The notes under the pieces are model-generated. The model was given only the letters and a program-made list of their open reading frames with translations, searched no databases and was not told the origin of the DNA. DNA of 20,000 bases from Xylographa opegraphella (Eukaryota), in contig JALDZX010000058.1 in assembly GCA_022813865.1 (NCBI GenBank), positions 107,413 to 127,412 of the forward strand. Direction: 5' to 3'. The translations under genes and the position numbers were made by a program. Below, piece by piece: positions 267 through 20,000 of this stretch. How positions within the stretch are numbered: position 1 is the first letter of the stretch; every line of letters begins with the position of its first letter.

Positions 267-727
267 TTTCACGAAATGCATCAAAGATGTAACAGAATCA
301 ACCAAAGCGGCAGCAAGTTTTGGACCTTAATGGTTGTATTTACTTCAAGATTAGACACTCCGTTCCCGTATTTTGAAGAAACCACCCTACTTGCAAATAT
401 TGCACAGAATCGAAAGAACAGGTCTGCCAACCCCGCAGAGCATCCGCCCAATGTGTTCAGAACGCATACACACATCAGTCCTGCCGAGCTCGCTACTTCA
501 ATCACAACAGCCGCAAGCCTAAAGAAATGCACAGTCCCTCAAAGAATCGTGACACGGAATAGCGAGTAACAAAGTCACAAGACAGCCCTAGTAGTCGTTC
601 CACTTCACTTCGCTAGGTACATGGATCCGGTGGTGCGATAGAGGGCTAGCTGAAGTATTGGTGTCGAGTATGAGTCCACAGAACGCCACGCTGATGAATT
701 GAGTTAAGGAGTCTCGAGCGTCCTGGG

Positions 728-1167
728 TTACATGACGATACAGCAGCCGTTGGCTTGCTGTGGTGCATAAGGGTCGTCACGTTTTTCAACCTGTTCGTAA
801 AAAAAAGATGATTTAGCGCTTTGCTGAACAATTACTTGTAGGGGTCAGAAGTTGGGCTGGACTTACTTGGCCCCATAGCGAGGGCACCATGAAATCCTTA
901 GTTGAGTTACAGTATGAAATTAAGCTACTGGCTATCAGCCTGAGGTACGAACCACGCTGGAGCCAGCTTCCCTTCACGTTGAAACTAGTACAGCGGAGAT
1001 AGTTATTCGACGTACCTCATCGACGCTTCCGACACTCTTATACGTGGCCGCTCCAGGTCCTCCTTCAAGCGCATATTCAGCTCATTCAGCCTACGCAGCT
1101 TCAATTCTGCCATCGATTGCTTCTTGTTTTTACCATCTCCACCAGGACGCATCTCAAATTGTGGCAT
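728..1167 (-). CDS. gpgA: Heterotrimeric G-protein gamma subunit (GpgA/Ste18-like), 90 aa, 3 exons: 1167-1016, 924-867, 790-728
   Basis: Spliced translation is [90 protein letters not shown]. Introns are GTACGT..TAG and GTAAGT..CAG. It ends in a CCaaX prenylation/palmitoylation motif. Not present in the ORF track. Confidence 0.95.
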
Positions 1168-1630
1168 ATTGGACTAGGTCTCGGACTAGCAACCAGGTTA
1201 GAATCAACATTGAAACGGCACAAGGACACTTGCGTGAACAAGGAGGTGAGGTTGATGGCCCACAGGTGAGGCTGAGTCCTCTCTCGATCGCGATGAGCAC
1301 GGCAGAAATAGAGGCAAGCTATACGTGATGGCTGACTGTAGAGATCTGCTTGAAGGCGATTCGACTTAATGGTAGAAACCGTGTGCGATTGATCTCACCT
1401 GCACTGGTGAAGTGCTTTCCCCAGAACACAGGCACCAACGCCTTCCCGCATTTACGCTAGTTATAATTAGCGGCCTCACTTTGATATTACCGCACAACCT
1501 AAAATCTCTACAGAGCACCTGGTGTCAAGAGTCTTGAGTTCTTCGATAGGACGTGATTGATATTTTGTGAGAACTCCAGAGAGCTGCTGAGCCATTTCTT
1601 CCTACAATCCGGTAGAAGAGATCGTCCAGC

Positions 1631-4600
1631 ATGCCTCCACCACCCCACACGAAGCCCGAGAATGTGCTCAAGGTGAGCTAACACGGTCGCCTCTCTGCTA
1701 CATCTACACGCGATGATGCTGCTACAATCGATACCAATAAGGGATGATGCTGATAATTCACTAAATAGCGAGCACAAGAACTTATCGCGGTTGGCCAGTC
1801 ACCGGCTGCGCTTACGATACTCCATGAACATATCACGTCCAAACGATCCCGGAACAGTCCGATTACCTCATTGGAGCCTGTGATGCTACTGTTTGTGGAG
1901 CTATGTGTAGATCTAAAAAAAGGCAAGCAAGCGAAAGACGGGCTTTATCAGTACAAGAATACTGCTCAGAACACCAATGTGGGCACGATTGAAGTAAGCG
2001 ATACCGCGTGGCAAGGAAACCAATAGTGCTAAGGAATAACTAGCTCGTGCTTCGACACTTCATCGAACTTGCTGGGCACAAGGTCACCGAAGCTCAAGCG
2101 AAAGCAGATGAGGTGCAGTCTACTCTCGAGCCTTATGCGTCTAGTGCTGCAGGTGTGGACGACCTTGAAGCGATTGAGACTCCTGAATCGATACTTCTCT
2201 CCACTGTCTCTGGAGAACAGTCGAGGGATCGGACCGACCGCGCTATCGTTACACCATGGCTGAAATTCCTTTGGGAAACATACCGAACTGTCTTGGAAAT
2301 TTTGAAAAACAATGCGCGGCTCGAAGTAATGTATCAAGCCACTGCACTCCAAGCGTTTGGTTTCTGTCAAACATATGCCCGAAAAACGGAGTTCCGAAGA
2401 CTATGCGAACTTCTCAGGAACCATGTCCAGAATGCAGCAAAATATCAGAGTCAGATGCACGCTATCAACCTCAGTGATGCTGATACTCTACAGCGCCATC
2501 TCGATACCCGTTTTCAGCAGCTGAATGTCGCTGTCGAGCTAGAACTATGGCAAGAGGCTTTTCGTAGTGTCGAGGATATCCATACTTTACTCAGCCTGTC
2601 CAAGCGGCCGGCAAAGAATATCATGATGGCCAACTACTATGAGAAGCTCACTCGTATTTTTCTTGTCAGCGAAAATTATTTGTTCCATGCAGCTGCCTGG
2701 AGTAGATATTATAATCTCCTTCGACAGTCCGCAACTGTGGTGGCTGCCGGACAGAGCTTGAAAAAGGACAATCCAGCAGTTACGGAAGCCGATATGAGCC
2801 GAGCAGCATCCTTCGTCTTGCTGTCCGCGCTCTCTATTCCCGTCATCAGCACATCTAGATCTCGTGGAGCTTTAATCGATGTCGACGAGGCCAGAAAGAA
2901 TAAGAACAGCCGGCTCACAAATCTGCTGGGGATGTCTCAGGCTCCAACTAGAGCTGTGCTCTTCAAGGACGCAATGAGCAAAGGACTCCTAAAACGTGCG
3001 AAGCCAGAAATCCGTGAATTGTACCAGATCCTCGAAGTCGACTTTCATCCTCTGTCTATATGCAAGAAGATTTCACCTATTCTCACACAGATTGGTTCGG
3101 ATTCTGAGATGGAGAAGTACATCATGCCACTGCAGCAGGTCATTCTTACTAGACTATTCCAGCAGCTCTCGCAGGTCTACGAATCGGTTGAGCTGAACTT
3201 TGTCTACGACCTCGCACAGTTTCCAGATCCTTTCCAAGTTACTTCGGGGACAATTGAGAAATTTATCATGAACGGATGCAAGAAAGGTGACCTTGCAATC
3301 AGAGTTGACCATGCAAGTGGTATACTTACTTTCGATTCCGATGTCTTCTCAGCTGCCAAGGCTCTGCATCCCAGTAGTGGCACCGGATCTGCTGAATCTG
3401 AGACTGCTTCCGTGCAGCGCCTGCAGAGTACTCCGGCGGAGATTGTTCGTTCTCAACTGACACGGCTGTCTAAAACTCTGTACATTACTTGCCAGTATGT
3501 CGACACAAGTTTCAATGTTGCTAGGCAGCAATCAAAAGCCGCAGCTTTCGCTCGAGCTGAGGCCGGAGCCGAACAAGAGCATCAAGAAACCCTTGCAAGA
3601 CGTGCTATCATTGAAAAGAAGAAAGAGCTTGCTTCCGATGCACTGCAGAAGAAACAAAAGGAAGAGGAGACACGAAAAAGACTTCACATTCAACAACTGC
3701 AGGAGCGAGAGGCTTCCAGACTTGCTGAAGAACAGAAAGCTCGAGAGCGAAAGCGTTTGGCGGATGAACAACGCAGGGTCAAGCAGGAGACAATTGCCAA
3801 GGAGGTTGAAGAACTCAAAAAGCATAAAAATATCGATCTGGAAGGACTGGACATCGATGATCTTGACAGTGACCGCCTTCGGATGATTCGAATTGAGCAA
3901 CTCGCTCGAGAAAAGAATGAGTTGAGCAACAACCTCAGAATAACTGGCAAGCGTATTGACCATTTAGAGCGAGCTTTTCGCAAGGAAGAGATCAAGCTGT
4001 TGCCGAAAGACTACGAAGCACAGCATGAGCTAGACTTTGCCAGCTTCGAGAAGAAAAAGGAGGAGACACTGAAAGAGGCCGAACGGAAACACAAAGACGA
4101 TGTTGGCCTGAAGAATCGGCTGAGTCGCCTCGTACCTGTATACGAGAGGTTTCGCAAAGACCTCCAAGAACGTCGACACGACGAATTCGAGAAGCGGAGA
4201 AGGCAAGCCGACAGGGAACTCGAGAATGCAATTCAGAAACGAAAGCGAGACGTTAGGGAGGCAAAAGCTCGAGAACAACGTGAGCGCGAAGAAGCCGAGC
4301 GACGTCAACGCGAGGAAGAGGAGAGGATGACAAGAGAAGCCGAAGAAAAGGCATCCGAAGAAGCCGAGAAGAGGCGTAAGCTTCAGGACCTTAAAGCACA
4401 GAAAGATGCTGAACGCAGGTAAGTAGTGTTGAACCTTCCTTAATCTGATCAATGGCTTACAGACAACTCAGGGAACTCGATCAACAAGCTTCGTTACAAC
4501 GGAAGCGCGAAGAAGAGGCAGAAGCAAAAATTGCAGCAAGGAAGGCTGGTGTCCCAGCTACCCGAATTCCAGACCGTACTGCGCCCACCCGCACGGACTC

Positions 4601-11685: not shown

Positions 11686-11953
11686 GTTGTGCTCAATTGA
11701 CCTTAAATGCCAGGTTGAGATTTAATGGCGAAAGCTGCACGATAGAGCCAGTCACGTGAACCTGTTCCCAAATCTAGTACTTCAGGAAGGCTTTGACGCG
11801 CAGCGAATTCCTCGGCTAACCCTCGCGCACGCCCGTAATTGCCCTGTTGTACCACGTGTCAACTGTTTTGTCACTATTCCCTGGGTGACCCCCGCTCCTC
11901 ATATTCCAACTAGTTGTTTTACTACGAATATTAATGGATATCTTTTAACGTAT

Positions 11954-12098
11954 TGTTAGAATTGGAGTCTATAAGCTCGAGTCCCCGAAGGGGGCCCCGG
12001 GGGCGGAGTATGGCTACCTGGGGATAAAAGTCTTTGAAAAATGGGCGAAAACCCTGCGAGCCTTCTTTGTTTTTTTTTTTTTTCTTTCGAACCTTCTC
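11954..12098. mobile_element. LTR-like repeat fragment, family X, copy 1 (interrupted at 12098)
   Basis: Begins TGTTAGAATTGGAG, has a GC-rich core CTCGAGTCCCCGAAGGGGG, then CCCTGCG and a poly-T tract. It is homologous in the same orientation to 19823-20000. The TG start suggests an LTR terminus, but the other end was not found. Confidence 0.6.
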
Positions 12099-12196
12099 TG
12101 TTACGTTCGACACAGGACGCTGGCCTGTACGCATCGCTTGGCAATGCTTGGCAATTGCTTGGCGAACCCAGCCCCTTTATATAATGGTCTTCGGGC

Positions 12197-12522
12197 TGAT
12201 AAGGTTCTGACCAATGTTGTGTGAAACAAGGGTCGGTGAAACCTTATTCTGGTTGCCTCCTTTGTCTTAATGGCCTCCCTTGGGAGGCATGGGAGGCATT
12301 TTAGAACAGGATTTTTATATAAAGTGGAGAATTTCCTTTATTGTAAAAGGCGTGTTCAATTTATATTATGATTTTAAATTAATAGGCTTTAATACAATAT
12401 TGTACGAAAATTATTACTCTTGAAAAACAATCAGTTTACCATTATATATTTTTATTTATTTATTAACGAATTCAATTTAAATTATTAATCGAATTATATT
12501 AATAAAAATTAAAATCGTAACA
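12197..12522 (+). repeat. 5' LTR of element Z (326 bp)
   Basis: TGATAAGG...ATCGTAACA, with TATATAAA at 12316-12323. Aligns with 18185-18734, mostly by transitions. Confidence 0.93.
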
Positions 12523-12543
12523 CTTTAAACATTTTTAAAACAA

Positions 12544-15500
12544 ATGTATCAGGAGTACGACCAAACTCAATTTCAAGCGTCGCAAAAAATAATAAATAAA
12601 TACTATAAAAATTAATCGTATCAAGGTAAAAAAACCCGATAAATATAAAGAAAATAGAAATCACCTAAAGAACTGATTTATACAAATAAATACATTTTTC
12701 GAGTTTTAAAGTAATGGTGTTTTAAAATTAAAAAAATCACTTTTCGTTATTATATATATATACGAGAACAAGCTTAGAAATAGATCGCTTTTTATTTTAA
12801 AAAATATCTCGAGGATTTTAACGACAAAAACTTTAAGTAGTTAAAAAACTTTGCGACATTTAAAATCGAAATCAAAAGAATTTTCGAATTATTAAATAAA
12901 AAAATAGCAATACGAATCATATAGCATTTTAGATAAATTTTTATTATATAAAATACTCGACTCGATTTTAACAGTTTGCGACTCAAATTAAATAAAACAA
13001 CGGCGTTTTAATAATAATATACCGCAAGGGATTTAAAGACTCGATAAAAAATAAATGAATAGAAACTAATGCCGTAATCGAAAGTATAAATCAAATAATC
13101 GAGATATACATAAAAATTAATAATAAACTGTACGAAAAAGTTATAAAACGTAAACACGAAATTAAAAATACAACAAAAATTAATTATTAAAAAACGATTT
13201 TAAAGCAAAAAAAATAATATAAAACGCCAAACTTTTATCGACCAATACCAATAAAAATAAATATATTTTAAAAGTAAAAGCAGGGATTTGAAAAACAGCA
13301 CTCACAAGGAAAAAAACAAAGATTATCTATTACGTATATAAATAAATCGGCCACATTACTAAAATTATCGATCAAAGAACAAAATACTTAAATTATAAAT
13401 AAATATATATTTAAAATATTCGATAAAGTCGAAATTTAAAAAAAATAACCGGCTATTTTGATACAAGGAAAAGAATACAAAATTTACCTTAATTTTAAAC
13501 AATCAGGTCAGTATCAGCAAAAAACACGAAAAAGTTTAAAAAACCAATATTTAGCACAGAAAAAACAGCCCTTAAATAAAAATTAATGATAACGAAAAAA
13601 GCAATTTAAATATTAATAATTTACAAATCGAGGAAGATTTTGAGAAACAGAATATTGAGCTAAACAATCTCGAAAATTAAATTTATAAAAAAATTAACAA
13701 GTTAATAACCGATAAAAACTAAAAAAATAAATATATAAAAACATCGAGTAAATTCGAAATATTTATATTATAATCGAATATGTCATAATATTTATACAAA
13801 CACGTACTGCAAGGTTTATTAAAAAGATTATGATTACAATAATTATATAAGAAGAATTTATTGTAGTATTTAAATTTAAAATAAATACTTTAAAAATAAA
13901 TGCCCGTGACACTTTCGAGAAAAACGAAAATATTTATACTTTTTAAAATATATATAAGAATTTTGCAATAATTTTATTGTATACGAAACTCGCTTAAAAA
14001 ACGACTACGGATATTCGTTATAGCAATAGTATTTTTATAAAGAATATATAATATATATAAAAATTAAAGAAATCCACGGCTACCTCGAACAGAAATTTTT
14101 TTTATATGTTATAGGAAAATATATAAAAATTAATATACTATACTTTAAAATATACTAAAAAAATCAGACTGTATAAATTTTATAAAGATTTTAATTAAAA
14201 TAACCGATCACCGAACAACCGTATTATTAAATATTAAAATTAATTCGAATTATATATTTAGCACTTTCGCGAAAAGCTGCGATTTCAAGTTTTTAATTTT
14301 AAAATAAATTTAAATAATAATGGCCGACGAATTATTAAGAAAAAAAGAAAAACGATATGCAAAATCACTTTTTATTGCGATTCATTAATATTATAAATAA
14401 ATAATTTTTAATATAATTATTATGGTAAAATATTATATTATTCTAGGTTTATTTTAATAAATTAAGCACAACGTGTTTTTAAACTGGGACAGAAAAGTAT
14501 TTATTAAAAAGTATATCAACTGCGTTATTAATATATATTTTATACATCGACAGAGAACGGTAGTAAATAAAGAAAAGAATCGAAAATCGATCAAGATTAT
14601 AAAATTTTTATTTTTAAATAAAATTGATCTTACTCGAGGATTCGACTCGATACGCATTAATAAAAGTTAGCAGAACAAAATAAGTTAAAATTTAAAAAAA
14701 ACCAATGCACCTTTTAATATTCCTAAAAAGCATAAAGTATAAACATGGTTTTTTTATGGAAAAAAAGGGCTTAATACTTTATTTAAATACCAACCTTGAA
14801 ACTGTAAAATCAACTTCGAATCAGGGAAAAAACTAACATTTAAATCTATATACGATATGTTAAAGAAAGAACTTCAAGAGTTTCGTAAATATATTAATAA
14901 AAATTTAAAAAAAGGATTTATACGTAAATCAAAATTTTCGACAGAATATTTCGTAATATTAATACCTAAAAAAACGAAAGTTTGAGACCTTGTATTTATT
15001 ATCGAAAGTTGAACGATGTTATTATTAAAAATCGATATTCTTTACCGAAAATTAACGAGATACGGGACAGATTTAGCAAAATAATATTTTTATTAAATTT
15101 AACCTTAAAGGCGTATACAATTTAATTAGAATAAAAAAAGACGAAAAATGAAAAACTGCATTTCGAAATAAGTATAAATACTACGAGTATCAAATAATGC
15201 CCTTTAAATTAATTAATATATTAACTACTTATTAAGTATTAATTAATAATATATTAAAAACACACTTGAATTTAACGATAATAGTCTATTTAAACGATGT
15301 ATTTATTTACTCAAAATTAATAAAGAAATATATAAAGTATGTATTAAAAATATTTATACATCTAGGAAAAACAAGATTGCTTTTTAAATTAAAAAAATAT
15401 AAATTCCGTAAAAATGAAGTAATTTTTCTAGAATTTATAATTAGTAAAAACGGAATTAAAATAAACTCGAAAAAATACGAATTATACTCGAATAGTTTTA

Positions 15501-17640
15501 ATTAATAACAGTAAAAAAAATTCTAAAATTTGCAAACTTTAATAAAACTTTTATTAAAAAATTACTTAAAAAAGGCGATACCTTTAACGAATTTGGTATA
15601 TAAAAATGTAAACATTAAATAGAATTCGAATCAACAACGAGCCTTTAATATTTTTAAAAAAAATTGTACAAAACTACCAGTTTTAATAATATTCCAGGTA
15701 AAAAAATTTAGAAAAATCAAAATAAACGTATTAAACTTAGCCGTAAAAGCATGTCTGCTATAAATATAAATTAAAAAAATGACACCTTATTGCATATTAT
15801 TTAAAAATAATATTACAAGCAGTGTAAAACTATAATATTTACGACAAGGAATTACTCGTTATAATAGTATTTATTTAAAACTGAAGAGTATATATAGAAA
15901 ATTGCTTAAAACTTATTATTTATATAAATTACAAAAATATATTAAGCTTTACGACAATAAAAGTATTTAATAAAAGATAAGTAAAATAGACAGAACTTTT
16001 AAAATTGTATAAATTTAAAATTGTATATATATCAGGCAAAGATAATAAAAGAGCAGATATATTTAGTAGAAAAAAAACCTTATAAATAAAGAACTAATAA
16101 ACGAAGTATTGCTGAAATAAAATAACAATAAAGCTTTTATTTTTATAAAATAAATCGTAGCTTTCGAACTAAAAACGATTACAAAAAATCTAACAGAACT
16201 GTTAACAGAAGAAATAATTAAATATTATTACGATGAATTAACGAATGGCCACCCAGAAATTATTAAAATAATAAAATTCATAAGAAAAAACTATAAATTT
16301 TCGAATATAAAAAAGCATGTAAAGGAATATATCAAAAAATATATATTGTGTCAAAAAAATAAATCAACAAGATATACAGTATATAAAAATTTTCAATTTT
16401 CAAACGTTTTAGAAAAATTATGGGAACAAATCTTAATTGACTTTATTATTAAATAATTGAAATTAAAAGATTTAACTACAGAATTAAAGTACGATCCGAT
16501 AATGATATTTATAAATAAATTTATTAAATACTCCATTATCGTATCTTTTAAAAAAACATTTAAAGCGGAACAACTAGCTTTTCTTTTATTAAATAAATTA
16601 ATAAAAATTCATAGGTTTTCAGCAGGAATAATATTTAATAAAAACAAACTATTTATATCGATTTCTGGAAAACTTTAATGTTTGAACTAGAAGTTAAATT
16701 AAAAATATTGATCGTTTATGTTAATTGGTAGAAGCATCACTTGCTGGTAGGCATAAAGGAATACCTGAAGGCTAGTTATATTTATGTATAGCGTAGTTCA
16801 GTACTAGCGTAGGAGGTATATGTCACGTTCTCGTGGCCTATACCGAACTTCACCGAATATACGATTACTGTTGCCCCCGCCCTGATCCAAATACACGTGC
16901 CTTTTAATAATTTATTATTTATAAACAGATAATCAAACGAAAGGAATAAATTAAAGTTTGAAAGTGTATTTACGATACTTTATTAATTTCAAATAAAATA
17001 ATGGAATATTATTATTGCCTTTGGGGCAATTAGCACTAAACGACAAACAATTTACAATAACGAAAATATCGCTTTTTTCGCAAATACAGAACGATATTCG
17101 AAATTTTTTAAAAATAAAAAATTTAAACCTAATACTAATAAGATAATAACATTAATCAATGAATTAAAGAATACGCACGAAGCGTTATTAAAAAATCGAA
17201 TAAAATAACGATAAAAAGCTGCTGTAAAATATAAAAATACGACAAATAAACCTTAGCTAAAGAAAGGGAATAAAATATTTTTTAACAAATAATTTAATAA
17301 TTAATAAAAATCGAAGCAAAAAACTCGATTATATCAAGGTCGGATTATTTTTAATCAAGCAAGTCAAAGAATTAATCAACTACCTTCTCAATCTGCTAAA
17401 AAAAATGCGAGAGTACACTCAGTGTTTTATATTTTATTATTAAAATTAGCAGACATAAGTATTTTATTATAAAAAACCTTTCGTTACAACAAAAAAACAT
17501 AGGAATTCGAAGTAAAAAGAATCCTGGACAAGCAAAATCAGAACTATTTGGTCAAGTAAAAGGGATACCCAGAATTAAATAATACTTGGGAACCACTTAC
17601 TAACCTTGGGAACTGCCAGGAATTTCTTTAATAATATTAC
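12544..17640 (+). pseudogene. Degenerate gag-pol of the chromovirus
   Basis: Gag from ATG 12544 (KVKKPDKYKENRNHLKN*FIQ..., YIREQA*K*I). CCHC knuckle remnant ~13325-13375. Protease remnant TVLLNIKINSNYI ~14215-14260. RT YRKLNDVIIKNRYSLP, *KTAFR and VYLNDVFIYS ~15000-15310. RNase H NYNIYDKELLVI ~15830-15865. Integrase GHPEIIK..CQKNK, WEQILIDFI and TDNQTKGIN ~16200-16950. Chromodomain EFEVKRILDKQNQNYLVK*KGYPELNNTWEPLTNL ~17503-17610. Many stops derive from TGG/CAA/CAG codons, plus frameshifts. Confidence 0.93.
16719..16909. mobile_element. Solo LTR (191 bp) inserted in the integrase
   Basis: TGTTAA...TTAATA (TTAACA with one transition), TSD GTTTA (16714-16718) / ATTTA (16910-16914). GC-richer than its flanks. 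Removing it restores the (S)TAYHPQTDGQTE-like frame. Confidence 0.88.
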
Positions 17641-17744
17641 CAAGTAAAGTCAAAATCTCAAAAAAAGAAACTTTCAAAGTCCCAGAAAAAAAAAGGGAGA
17701 AAAAGTTTGAAAAAAATCGTTGGTAAAATTTTTCGCCTCTCAAA

Positions 17745-18128
17745 GTTTATTGTTTTTTAGGGCTTCGATGTTAAATATTTTACGCTAAAATATTTCCCGT
17801 TCCTCATTTTTATTATTTAAAAATCGACGCTTTTTACGGCTTAAAGCTTGTAAAACCTGATTTAAAGTTTATTTTAATTTCACTATTCGACGTTTTATTT
17901 TATTTTTTGTTTTTTTAAATCACGACGATCAACCTTTATAATAATCAAAAAATAACGAGTTTTGACCGCAATATGGTTTACGCAAAACTTCGACTCCGAA
18001 GAGATCGTATAAATTAAATACTTTTTAATACAGCGAACACAAAAATGCATCGTGAACTTTCCTTTATCACGAATACTGTACGATTAAACCTTTCGGCGAT
18101 AAACGCTTGTTAATTTATATTTTGGCAT
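17745..18128 (-). pseudogene. Antisense extra ORF of element Z: Zn2Cys6-like cluster plus coiled coil, RIP-degraded
   Basis: ATG at 18128: MPKYKLTSVYRRKV*SYSIRDKGKFTMHFCVRCIKKYLIYTISSESKFCVNHIAVKTRYFL..., then after an A-run frameshift KRRIVKLK*TLNQVLQALSRKKRRFLNNKNEEREIF*RKIFNIEALK. The 3' end is approximate. Confidence 0.65.
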
Positions 18129-18184
18129 AATATAAAAAAACTGCTGGAATTCTTTCGGAGTAAAAATCTGGCGGAAAAAGTTGG

Positions 18185-18734
18185 TAATAAAATTCTGACC
18201 AATGTTGTATAAAACAAGGATTGGTAAAATTTTATTTCAATTGCCTTCTTTGCCTCTGTGACGGCTATGACATCAGTCACAGGTAATAGGGGTCGGGCTG
18301 GATCAGGACTAGCACCTTTAGTATATANTCTCGCCCATGGAGCAGCCTCACCGCTTCTCCATCTTAATCTAGGTTGAAATCGTCCACCTAAAGCTTACGT
18401 TCTAGGCGTGCTTGTGTGGTGAGTTGATGAGCCGTAACAGCCTCCCTGAGAAAATATAAAAAACATGACCTCTTTATTTTAATGGCCTCCCTTGGGAGGC
18501 ATAAAAGGCATTTTAAAATAGAATTTTTATATAAAATAAAGAATTTCCTTTATTGTAAAAAATATGTTCAATTTATGTTATAATTTTAACTTAATAGACT
18601 TCAATACAATACTGTACGAAAATTATTATTTTTGGAAAACGATTAATTTGTTACTATACCTTTTTATTTATTTATTAACGAATTCAATTCAGATCCTTAA
18701 TCGAATTATATTAATGAGAAACAAGATCGTAACA
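18185..18734 (+). repeat. 3' LTR of element Z (contains a nested solo LTR)
   Basis: TAATAAAA (TGATAAGG after RIP)...GATCGTAACA. It has ~36 bp at 18445-18480 that the 5' LTR lacks. Confidence 0.93.
18257..18439. mobile_element. Solo LTR (183 bp) inserted in the 3' LTR of element Z
   Basis: TGTGACGGCT...AGCCGTAACA (9/10 inverted match), perfect TSD GCCTC (18252-18256 and 18440-18444), absent from the 5' LTR, balanced GC. Contains one N at 18328. Confidence 0.92.
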
Positions 18735-18812
18735 CGGGCTTTCACAATAAATTATTTTTTATATTTTTAATATAATGAATATAATAGCAATATTTGATTA
18801 TTAATTATAATA

Positions 18813-19822
18813 ATATCAGAAATTTCGCGAATTCGTCAAATTTTTAATTATTAAATTTAACTTTTCGAGTTATAATTATTTACGCGATAATTTAATATTA
18901 ATTTTATAATTTAATATTTTTTTCGTAGCAAATATTAATAGCAAAAGTTATTAAAAAAATTTACAAAATTATCACGAGTTTTGAATTTTGAATTTTGATT
19001 TGATTTGTACTTTCCTGTTTTTACTCTGTTTGCACATTTTAGCGAGTTATTATATAATTAAACCTTTTTTCATAATTAAAATTCAGTTTTTTCATATTAT
19101 GATAAATTATAAATTTTGTAGTCGTGCGTTTATCTTATAAATAATAATATTATCGAGGTTATTTAATCATTCGAAACGCCAGAAATAGTTTATTTATTTT
19201 ATTAATTAAGAAATTTAATTTTTCAGCGAATGATTATTTTATAAATTAAATTTAATACCATTTCGCAAAATCTTTAACTATTCTTTATTTTATTTTATAA
19301 ATATAAAAAAAAATTTAAATTAATATATTTGTTATTTCTTAAATCGTGTATTACAAAAAATTGTATCGTTATAAATAACGTAGTTTTTTTATTTTTTCGA
19401 AAAAAACCTTTAATTTATATCACTTAAAAAAATTTAGTAAATTTTTTTAAAATTTTTTTGATTTATATTACTAAAAGAAATTTAGTAAATTTTTTTTATT
19501 TATCGTAATTTTTTCGATTGGAAATGCTATAATAATTCGAGTTTACTTTCGTTTTAAAAATTTTATCGAATTCGGTTTTAATTCGGTCAATAAGTTGTTT
19601 CGTTTTTTAAAAATTTCGTTAGATTAATTATAATTAATAACGTTAAATTTAGATATTTTTTATTTTAATTATTTCGAATTAATTAATTGTATCGATTTAT
19701 TTTAAGCAATACGAGCAAGATCTTTAAATTTTTTAATTTAACATTAAAATTAAACAGTCGACAAAATAATTTTTAAATTTAACGTAAAATTTTTATCGAA
19801 GTCGTTTTTTATTTATTATTAA
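18813..19822. mobile_element. Heavily RIP-mutated repeat-derived sequence, family unassigned
   Basis: Extreme AT richness with surviving C mostly in CpG. T-rich on + (A-rich on -), opposite to element Z. No domain recognised. Confidence 0.55.
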
Positions 19823-20000
19823 TATTGGAATGGGAGTTCATAAACTCGAGTCCCCGAGGGGCGCCCCCGAAGAAGGCTTTTAAGGCGAGTATAATTACTC
19901 GAGAATAATTTCTTTTAAAAAATATGCGAAGGCCCTGCGTTTTATTTTTATTTTTATTTTTATTTTTATTTTTATTTTTATTTTTATTTTTATTTTTATT
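19823..20000. mobile_element. LTR-like repeat, family X, copy 2, running off the window into a (TTTTTA)n tract
   Basis: TATTGGAATGGGAGTTCATAAACTCGAGTCCCCGAGGGG...CCCTGCG followed by (TTTTTA)n from ~19940. Homologous to 11954-12085 with transitions, some transversions and an indel. Confidence 0.6.

What the first reader, a model, noticed from the sequence alone, without database searches (positions are those of the whole stretch)
17745..18128. Chromovirus carries an antisense ORF with Gal4-type Zn(II)2Cys6 spacing and a coiled coil
Seen: between the chromodomain and the PPT, a minus-strand ORF starts ~57 bp inside the 3' LTR boundary. Codons 30-59 (18041-17952) read C-x2-C-x6-Y-x8-C-x2-H-x6-Y. 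Both Y codons are TAT, one RIP transition from TGT (Cys). The fifth ligand is CAT (His), which RIP does not explain. A helical, basic RKKRR-containing segment follows. Known: C-x2-C-x6-C-x5-12-C-x2-C-x6-8-C is the fungal binuclear zinc-cluster DNA-binding signature, usually followed by a dimerisation coil, and it is not part of canonical gag-pol. Inference: the element family encodes its own small DNA-binding accessory protein, transcribed antisense from the 3' LTR. It could be an LTR regulator, an integration-targeting factor or an anti-silencing factor. Extra antisense ORFs are reported in some LTR elements, but I know of no function for this type.
Basis: partly seen in the sequence, partly recalled or inferred. 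Interest (0 to 1): 0.75.

Follow-up and report, generated by a model that had tools for sequence, protein, structure and literature searches.

The report
Dead antisense Cys6 gene in chromovirus
A mutation-riddled fungal retrotransposon carries, on its opposite strand, the wreck of a small extra gene; an intact relative found elsewhere has six cysteines spaced as in Gal4-type zinc clusters, then a long helix, so this element family probably encoded an accessory protein of its own.

Summary
The "ORF" is not open. The stated frame 18128-17745 has 9 stops in 128 codons, and the RKKRR segment lies in a different frame.

A full HMMER scan of 1.84 billion protein representatives with the 62-aa open stretch found two relatives. 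P0003 (177 aa, normal composition) starts with the same Met-Pro-Lys as the window's ATG at 18128. Its only six Cys form C-x2-C-x6-C-x8-C-x2-C-x6-C. Both of the window's Tyr codons and its His codon align with Cys. P0002 (166 aa, AT-biased composition) matches the window colinearly in three minus frames down to a stop at 17600.

So the window holds a RIP-degraded copy (4 stops, 2 frameshifts) of a roughly 175-codon antisense gene. It runs from about 54 nt inside the 3' LTR to a tail-to-tail overlap with the end of pol.

Membership in Pfam Zn_clus is not shown (11.5 bits, cut-off 21). Zinc binding, DNA binding and transcription are all untested.

An antisense gene at this position (brtn of Boty) is already in print for Botrytis, and homology to it could not be tested.

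Verdict: a real, degraded accessory gene; a new variant of a known kind; function inferred only.

The parts
12192..12196 (.). Target-site duplication CGGGC, left copy
   Evidence: Read from the sequence. The same 5 bases follow the 3' LTR at 18735-18739.
12197..12522 (+). 5' LTR (TG...CA); its 5' part is little mutated
   Evidence: Direct repeats D1 and D2; ends read.
15771..16010 (+). pol: RNase H domain, read through stops with X
   Evidence: Pfam RT_RNaseH, E 2e-06, 28.3 bits against a cut-off of 24.8.
16202..16366 (+). pol: integrase zinc-binding domain
   Evidence: Pfam Integrase_H2C2, E 3.5e-11. P0001 is 43% identical to 16154-16678.
17515..17628 (+). pol: chromodomain, followed by TAA TAA at 17629-17634
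   Evidence: Pfam Chromo, E 4.6e-09, 36.5 bits against a cut-off of 25.1; stops read.
17600..18128 (-). Degraded antisense accessory gene: ATG at 18128, stop TAG at 17602-17600; 4 internal stops and 2 frameshifts along the path set by the homologues
   Evidence: tblastn of P0003 residues 1-75 against 18128-17904: 40% identity, E 8e-15. P0002 matches colinearly in three minus frames, Expect(3) 4e-20. phmmer E 3.3e-06 and 2.1e-04 in 1.84 billion proteins.
17952..18041 (-). Cys-motif remnant C-x2-C-x6-Y-x8-C-x2-H-x6-Y; in P0003 all six positions are Cys
17686..17916 (-). Second frame segment: basic helix region including RKKRR and the conserved FNIEAL stretch; 3 stops
   Evidence: The corresponding part of P0003 is a helix, residues 65-142, with block-mean pLDDT of 87-95 over residues 71-140.
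17603..17704 (-). Third frame segment: C-terminal tail ending ..PGSSQG. Its last 26 nt of coding sequence (29 nt with the stop codon) lie antisense to the end of pol
   Evidence: P0003 ends ..PGSS and P0002 ends ..PGNF.
18170..18180 (+). Polypurine-tract-like run just before the 3' LTR
   Evidence: Read from the sequence; inference.
18182..18734 (+). 3' LTR, carrying a 216-bp foreign insertion at 18256-18471
   Evidence: The insertion is absent from the 5' LTR.
18735..18739 (.). Target-site duplication CGGGC, right copy

Best explanation
The window holds a RIP-inactivated copy of a Ty3/gypsy chromovirus (LTRs 12197-12522 and 18182-18734, 5-bp target duplication).

Between pol and the 3' LTR, on the opposite strand, lies the wreck of a small accessory gene of about 175 codons (18128 to 17600). 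In its intact form, represented by P0003, the protein has four parts:
- a basic N-terminal tail;
- a block holding the protein's only six cysteines, spaced C-x2-C-x6-C-x8-C-x2-C-x6-C;
- a long charged helix of about 78 residues;
- an acidic C-terminal tail.

Shown here: homology, colinearity, the shared start, a stop within 2 codons, Cys at the predicted places, and the helix.

Inferred: the gene was transcribed from an antisense promoter in or next to the 3' LTR. The protein bound zinc through the six Cys. It acted in the nucleus as a nucleic-acid-binding regulator of the element's own expression or silencing, perhaps as a dimer through the helix, in the manner of the DNA-binding and dimerisation module of Gal4-type factors. 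I give about 0.35 to that specific mechanism.

The copy in the window cannot make the protein.
For: (1) phmmer of the 62-aa open stretch against 1,835,955,588 representatives gave 2 hits at E <= 0.001: P0002 at 3.3e-06 and P0003 at 2.1e-04. Both cover query residues 3-60.

(2) Sequence that was not in the query also matches. The window's Met-Pro-Lys start at 18128 and the next 14 codons align with the start of P0003. The window's stop at codon 15 aligns with Gln, one RIP-type change away. Default tblastn of P0003 residues 1-75 gives 40% identity, E 8e-15.

(3) P0002 aligns colinearly in three minus frames (18077-17904, 17916-17686, 17704-17612), Expect(3) 4e-20. The three proteins end within 2 codons of each other.

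(4) P0003 has exactly six Cys (residues 30, 33, 40, 49, 52, 59), all in the motif. Window codons 40 and 59 (TAT) and codon 52 (CAT) align with Cys. P0002 has Tyr at four of the six positions.

(5) Of the 48 mismatches between the window and P0003, 17 can be derived by C>T or G>A changes alone. The label-shuffle null is 14%, and 0 of 5000 shuffles reach the observed share.

(6) Other copies in run X1 are closer to the homologues. Codon 31 reads Asp in 8 contigs, as in P0002 and P0003. Codon 29 reads Ser in 7 contigs, intermediate between Pro in P0003 and Phe in the window.

(7) AlphaFold2 on the two-sequence alignment predicts a helix at residues 65-142 with block-mean pLDDT of 87-95 over residues 71-140.

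(8) The ESM Atlas places P0003 nearest to clusters of unnamed Ascomycota proteins (score 0.95; 122, 62 and 210 members). This is a lead only.

(9) Antisense genes between pol and the 3' LTR are documented in Boty and in plant elements (passages).
Against: Only two relatives were found, and I could not fetch the DNA of either. Their position inside a retrotransposon, their strand, and any dN/dS are therefore untested.

P0003 found only itself in the word-based search of 5.8 billion clusters.

Pfam Zn_clus scores 11.5 bits (E 0.33) against a cut-off of 21. It aligns the first three Cys of P0003 to the second half of the model. P0002 and the window peptide give no Zn_clus hit.

No Zn2Cys6 chain appears among the 9 PDB sequences matched at E <= 10.

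The Cys block is modelled at pLDDT 50-65, and Foldseek finds nothing.

Heptad periodicity in the helix is weak: 50% hydrophobic at a/d in the best register, against 38% overall.

Within this genome, codon 52 is CAT in the window and TAT in 3 other contigs. RIP-type changes alone cannot derive CAT from a Cys codon, so the fifth ligand in this lineage was probably His or Arg rather than Cys.

The rows that would show Cys at 18010 or 17953 in other copies were not among the 40 of 391 rows printed.

Among the 10 printed variants inside 17895-18128, 5 are synonymous and 5 are not. That is no clear sign of constraint.
Confidence: 0.62

Rival explanations
1. Conserved but non-coding spacer. The region between pol and the PPT is conserved as DNA, for example for reverse transcription or as a 3' UTR. 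P0002 and P0003 would then be spurious ORF calls on its antisense strand, and the Cys spacing would be accidental.
For: There are only two relatives. Each is a singleton cluster without a name, from ENA assemblies. There is no Pfam family and no listed RNA evidence. RIP-derivable mismatches would also arise in non-coding homologous DNA.
Against: P0003 has a 177-codon open frame with ordinary composition (FYMINK 0.24). The start is shared with the window, and the stops lie within 2 codons in three sequences that are only about 40% identical. All six Cys of P0003 fall on the motif. A 78-residue helix is confidently predicted.
Confidence: 0.2
2. Pure chance: a Cys/Tyr/His pattern thrown up by AT-rich, RIP-mutated sequence, with no gene behind it.
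For: The frame is closed by 9 stops. The window peptide gives no Zn_clus hit. Across a scan of very many windows, some such patterns are expected.
Against: 0 of 300 shuffles give the pattern. Homologues found without reference to the motif restore Cys at all three relaxed positions and extend the match to the whole gene.
Confidence: 0.03
3. It is simply a diverged member of the published brtn gene family of Boty-like elements, so the whole architecture is already known. This concerns classification and is compatible with the best explanation.
For: The position, orientation and element type are the same: an antisense gene between pol and the 3' LTR of a chromodomain-bearing gypsy element in an ascomycete. 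See passages in PMC7264820, PMC4227169 and PMC8365987. A Monilinia transcript matches both a truncated Pol and BRTN (PMC5987419).
Against: No protein named BRTN, and no NCBI-sourced relative, surfaced with the window peptide or with P0003. These searches can miss distant relatives, and I could not obtain a BRTN sequence to compare.
Confidence: 0.3
4. Captured host fragment: the gene descends from the N-terminal DNA-binding plus dimerisation module of a host Zn(II)2Cys6 transcription factor, transduced into the element. This is a hypothesis about origin and is compatible with the best explanation.
For: The order of parts (Cys6 block, then long helix, then acidic tail) resembles the N-terminal module of Gal4-type factors (established knowledge). 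There is a weak Zn_clus match at E 0.33.
Against: No host-type Zn_clus protein appears among the hits. The Atlas's nearest clusters carry no Pfam family. The review I read states that antisense ORFs of plant elements do not look like transduced genes (PMC7264820).
Confidence: 0.12

Closest known systems
brtn, the antisense gene of Boty-like LTR retrotransposons of Botrytis cinerea and Sclerotinia (Zhao et al. 2011, Virology 417:248). I saw only the title in reference lists and citing passages; the paper itself is not held.
   Same: An extra gene on the antisense strand between pol and the 3' LTR of an ascomycete gypsy element whose pol ends in a chromodomain.
   Different: The sequence relationship is untested. 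No BRTN-named protein was recovered by any search. I could not learn from the held literature whether BRTN has a Cys6 block.
Plant antisense aORFs between pol and the 3' LTR (maize Grande gene23, rice RIRE2, Silene Retand, Phaseolus PvRetro13)
   Same: Same position and orientation. They are present in most copies of a family, and some products are nuclear. Their function is unknown, and a regulatory role has been proposed (PMC7264820 passages).
   Different: Different kingdom and element lineages. The review reports no clear similarity to known proteins for them. Here there is a recognisable Cys6 spacing.
Fungal Zn(II)2Cys6 binuclear-cluster DNA-binding domain (Pfam PF00172, Gal4 type)
   Same: A long helix follows, as the dimerisation element does in Gal4-type factors.
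   Different: The match is below the Pfam cut-off and out of register. No solved member matches by sequence. From memory, family members carry basic residues right after the second Cys, and these are mostly missing. The protein is only 177 aa and has no middle homology region.
HBZ of HTLV-1 (recalled from general knowledge, not from a call)
   Same: A small nuclear regulatory protein with a DNA-binding or dimerisation helix, encoded on the antisense strand and transcribed from the 3' LTR of a retroelement. The review read here also points to retroviral antisense genes as the analogy.
   Different: HBZ belongs to a retrovirus of animals and is a bZIP protein, not a Cys6 protein. There is no sequence relationship. 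The analogy concerns architecture only.

Membership tests
Pfam Zn_clus (PF00172), fungal Zn(II)2Cys6 domain | Six Cys with spacing C-x2-C-x6-C-x5-12-C-x2-C-x6-8-C | tested here: met
   Met in the intact relative P0003: Cys at 30, 33, 40, 49, 52 and 59, and no other Cys. The window has only 3 of the 6, with Tyr, His and Tyr at the other three. P0002 has 2 of 6.
Pfam Zn_clus (PF00172), fungal Zn(II)2Cys6 domain | Score at or above the curated gathering cut-off of the family model | tested here: not met
   P0003 scores 11.5 bits, E 0.33, against a cut-off of 21. Residues 27-44 match model positions 16-34, which is the wrong half. The window peptides and P0002 give no hit at E <= 10.
Pfam Zn_clus (PF00172), fungal Zn(II)2Cys6 domain | Similarity in sequence or fold to solved Zn2Cys6 domains | tested here: inconclusive
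   No Zn2Cys6 chain is among the 9 PDB sequences at E <= 10. Foldseek has no match at E <= 0.001, but the Cys block of the model has pLDDT of only 50-65.
Pfam Zn_clus (PF00172), fungal Zn(II)2Cys6 domain | Binds two zinc ions and DNA (CGG-type sites) | not testable with these tools
   Needs purified protein.
Antisense aORF between pol and 3' LTR (aORF-3R; includes brtn of Boty) | Lies between the end of pol and the 3' LTR, on the strand opposite to gag-pol | tested here: met
   The gene spans 18128-17600 on the minus strand. The pol chromodomain ends at 17628 and the 3' LTR starts at 18182.
Antisense aORF between pol and 3' LTR (aORF-3R; includes brtn of Boty) | Present and conserved in most copies of the family and in related elements | tested here: inconclusive
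   The stretch is covered by several other contigs of run X1 (about 3-12 per place). Two relatives exist elsewhere. Their sequences and context could not be fetched.
brtn family specifically | Sequence homology to BRTN | not testable with these tools
   No BRTN sequence could be obtained, and the paper is not held. No BRTN-named hit appeared.
Chromovirus (chromodomain-bearing Ty3/gypsy LTR retrotransposon) | LTRs with a target duplication; pol with RNase H and integrase, ending in a chromodomain | tested here: met
   RT_RNaseH, Integrase_H2C2 and Chromo all pass their cut-offs. The 5-bp duplication is CGGGC.

The most novel reading that the evidence does not exclude
A lineage of ascomycete chromoviruses encodes its own minimal Gal4-like transcription factor: a zinc cluster, a dimerising helix and an acidic tail. 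It would be expressed from an antisense promoter at the 3' LTR and would bind the element's LTR or target DNA to control transcription, silencing or integration. This would be a fungal retrotransposon counterpart of retroviral antisense regulators such as HBZ. It may correspond to the large unnamed Ascomycota protein clusters seen in the ESM Atlas.
Probability: 0.25. Interest if true: 0.8.

Novelty: new variant of a known kind. Interest (0 to 1): 0.55.

Why it matters
Antisense extra genes of LTR retrotransposons are known in plants and in Botrytis, but the review I read says none has an assigned function. A member with a recognisable six-cysteine block and a long helix gives a concrete hypothesis that can be tested at the bench: zinc binding, DNA binding, and action on the LTR. 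It would also explain a set of unnamed small Ascomycota proteins. The result further shows that a gene can be recognised through heavy RIP damage. For the genome at hand the copy is dead and has no present function.

Tried and rejected
- **No whole genome held for the window.** Copies could not be collected, and no deRIP comparison of copies was possible beyond the printed part.
- **Sequencing runs.** One DNA holder (X1, share 0.91); no RNA holder listed.
- **Read laying.** Only 40 of 391 variant rows were printed. Places 18010 and 17953, which decide Cys or Tyr in other copies, are not among them.
- **The search for homologous proteins.** The window peptide found no candidate. P0003 found only itself. 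The integrase stretch found one unnamed RIP-like relative, P0001.
- **The search for related loci.** P0003 and A2 in metagenome contigs gave 0 confirmed of 130 and 0 of 478 pattern matches. P0003 in viral contigs gave 0 of 7.
- **Complex prediction.** Two copies of P0003 residues 20-145 with four zinc ions returned "no answer" (0.49 against a control at 0.34). This is not evidence either way.
- **Foldseek against PDB:** nothing.
- **Atlas on the Cys block, named clusters only:** all scores below 0.9, and no family.
- **Rfam (E <= 1) and ARAGORN:** Rfam on 11900-20000 and ARAGORN on the whole window found nothing.
- **Earlier findings of this scan:** nothing by place, sequence or words.
- **Literature.** The Zhao 2011 paper is not held. 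Five searches listed no paper describing a zinc-cluster antisense ORF in a fungal LTR element. This covers only the held library. The PDF supplement of PMC8365987 that draws brtn could not be read.
- **Correction.** The count is 9.

Full report
**Setting**

The last 7.8 kb of the window is AT-rich: GC is 0.17-0.30, against 0.49 in the gene-bearing first 12 kb. Its dinucleotide indices fit repeat-induced point mutation (RIP): TA/AT is about 1.0 and (CA+TG)/(AC+GT) is 0.6-0.8 inside the element.

Direct repeats and the sequence itself define an LTR element on the + strand:
- 5' LTR at 12197-12522;
- 3' LTR at 18182-18734;
- both LTRs run TG...CA;
- the element is flanked by the 5-base duplication CGGGC (12192-12196 and 18735-18739).

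Read through its many stops with X, the interior gives Pfam RT_RNaseH, Integrase_H2C2 and Chromo above their cut-offs, in three different frames. The chromodomain ends at about 17628 and is followed by TAA TAA.

**The observation**

On the minus strand the frame that opens with the ATG at 18128 does read C-x2-C-x6-Y-x8-C-x2-H-x6-Y at 18041-17952. The codons are TAT, CAT and TAT, as stated. The pattern occurs once in the six frames of 12300-19800 and in 0 of 300 dinucleotide-preserving shuffles. A looser version allowing C, Y or H at all six places occurs in 4 of 300.

The frame is not open, however. It has 9 stops in 128 codons, and the longest open stretch around the motif is 62 codons. Pfam finds no Zn_clus in any reading of the window. 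On the window alone I would have called this a chance pattern.

**Relatives**

The word-based search with the 62-aa stretch found nothing. A full HMMER scan of 1.84 billion representatives found two proteins: P0002 (166 aa, E 3.3e-06) and P0003 (177 aa, E 2.1e-04). Both cover residues 3-60 of the query.

P0003 has ordinary composition and P0002 is AT-codon-biased like the window. FYMINK residues make up 0.24 of P0003 and 0.49 of P0002.

Parts of the window that were not in the query also match:
- P0003 begins Met-Pro-Lys, exactly as the window does at 18128.
- The next residues align without gaps.
- The window's first stop (TAA, codon 15) aligns with Gln.

With default statistics, tblastn gives 40% identity over residues 1-75, E 8e-15.

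P0002 aligns colinearly with three successive minus frames: 18077-17904, 17916-17686 and 17704-17612, Expect(3) 4e-20. The second segment contains the RKKRR stretch and a conserved FNIEAL word shared with P0003. The third ends ..PGSSQG-stop in the window..PGSS-stop in P0003 and ..PGNF-stop in P0002.

The real unit is therefore about 175 codons, 18128 to 17600. In this copy it is broken by 4 stops and 2 frameshifts (near 17910 and 17700). Its 3' end overlaps the end of pol tail to tail by about 30 nt.

**The cysteines**

P0003 has six Cys in 177 residues, at 30, 33, 40, 49, 52 and 59. This gives C-x2-C-x6-C-x8-C-x2-C-x6-C and nothing else. P0002 keeps Cys at two positions and has Tyr at the other four.

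Of the 48 positions where the window differs from P0003, 17 can be derived from a codon of the P0003 residue by C>T or G>A changes alone. The expectation is 14% when residues are shuffled among those positions, and 0 of 5000 shuffles reach the observed share.

Contigs of the one run that holds the window (X1) show other copies of the stretch:
- In 8 contigs codon 31 reads Asp, as in both relatives.
- In 7 contigs codon 29 reads Ser, midway between Pro (P0003) and Phe (window).
- In 8 contigs codon 30 is TGC, still Cys.
- In 3 contigs codon 52 is TAT where the window has CAT.

Since RIP-type changes cannot turn a Cys codon into CAT, the fifth position in this genome's lineage was probably His or Arg. 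His would still be a possible zinc ligand. The printed table held 40 of 391 variant rows and does not include 18010 or 17953. It is answered here only through the relative.

**What the protein looks like**

The regions of P0003 are:
- a basic N-tail (pI 10.5);
- the Cys block (residues 26-64);
- a region at 65-142 with 21 K+R and 16 D+E;
- an acidic tail (pI 4.1).

AlphaFold2 on the two-sequence alignment predicts one helix at 65-142 with block-mean pLDDT of 87-95 over residues 71-140. The Cys block scores only 50-65. Heptad periodicity in the helix is weak, so a coiled coil is plausible but not shown.

Pfam Zn_clus scores 11.5 bits (E 0.33, cut-off 21), and the match is out of register. No Zn2Cys6 chain is among the PDB sequence matches. 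Foldseek finds nothing.

The ESM Atlas puts P0003 next to unnamed Ascomycota clusters of 122, 62 and 210 members at 0.95-0.94. The Cys block alone gets scores below 0.9 and no named family.

I therefore describe the block as Zn2Cys6-like in spacing, but I do not file the protein as a member of that family.

**Mechanism**

Shown:
- a conserved antisense reading frame with a shared start and a shared end;
- a six-Cys block;
- a long helix.

Inferred:
- zinc binding by the six Cys;
- nuclear action;
- binding to nucleic acid, perhaps as a dimer;
- transcription from an antisense promoter in or beside the 3' LTR, which begins 54 nt upstream of the ATG;
- a role in regulating the element.

The architecture parallels retroviral antisense regulators. 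The review of plant antisense ORFs draws the same analogy (PMC7264820, passages). I could not test expression, selection or binding.

**What is known**

The held literature shows that antisense genes between pol and the 3' LTR exist in maize Grande, rice RIRE2, Silene Retand and Phaseolus PvRetro13. In fungi they exist in Boty of Botrytis and Sclerotinia, as the gene brtn (PMC7264820 passages). A Boty-like element is described with gag, CCHC finger, protease, RT, integrase and chromodomain plus brtn (PMC4227169 passage). A Monilinia transcript matches both a truncated Pol and BRTN (PMC5987419 passage). A survey of fungal chromoviruses draws an additional ORF of unknown function in a figure legend (PMC2864245).

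The brtn paper itself is not held, and I could not obtain a BRTN sequence. Whether the present gene is a brtn homologue is therefore open. No BRTN-named or NCBI-sourced protein surfaced, which argues against a close relationship only. None of the five literature searches listed a report of a zinc-cluster-like antisense ORF in a fungal LTR element. That statement is limited to the held library.

**Verdict**

- The motif is real.
- The open frame is not.
- Family membership in Zn_clus, DNA binding and function remain unproven.
- The copy in the window is a pseudogene.
- I rate it a new variant of a known kind (an antisense accessory gene of an LTR retrotransposon), of moderate interest.

Noticed in passing
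window 18256-18471: A 216-bp insertion sits in the 3' LTR and is absent from the 5' LTR. Its GC is 0.48, so it is not RIP-mutated, and it is flanked by an imperfect direct repeat of about 8 bases. In run X1 the summed contig depth over it is 70,000-277,000, against roughly 500-3,000 on the neighbouring element. It therefore looks like a very high-copy short element (SINE or MITE-like). There is no Rfam or tRNA match.
   Followed up: partly
window about 16700-16900: A stretch with higher GC (0.37 for 16680-16920) interrupts the integrase core. The pol homology resumes in another frame after it. It looks like a second small insertion, unrelated by blastn to the one in the LTR.
   Followed up: partly
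window 12273-12288 and 18485-18500: A perfect 16-base palindrome (7-base arms around two central bases) is kept identical in both LTRs despite RIP around it. It could be a protein-binding site and would be a natural first probe for the accessory protein.
   Followed up: no
window 11951-12196 and 19820-20000; 18740-19819: The chromovirus is inserted into another repeated sequence. A 48-base stretch upstream (11951-11998) recurs at 19820-19867 at 81% identity. The 1.1 kb between the 3' LTR and that repeat is the most AT-rich part of the window (GC 0.17) and has no recognisable coding. The window ends in a TTTTTA-type microsatellite.
   Followed up: no
window 12197-12330 versus 18182-18255 and 18472-18560: The 5' end of the 5' LTR, next to unique DNA, is far less mutated than the matching part of the 3' LTR. 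For example, several G/C in the 5' copy are A/T in the 3' copy. This shows the RIP gradient at the edge of the repeat.
   Followed up: no
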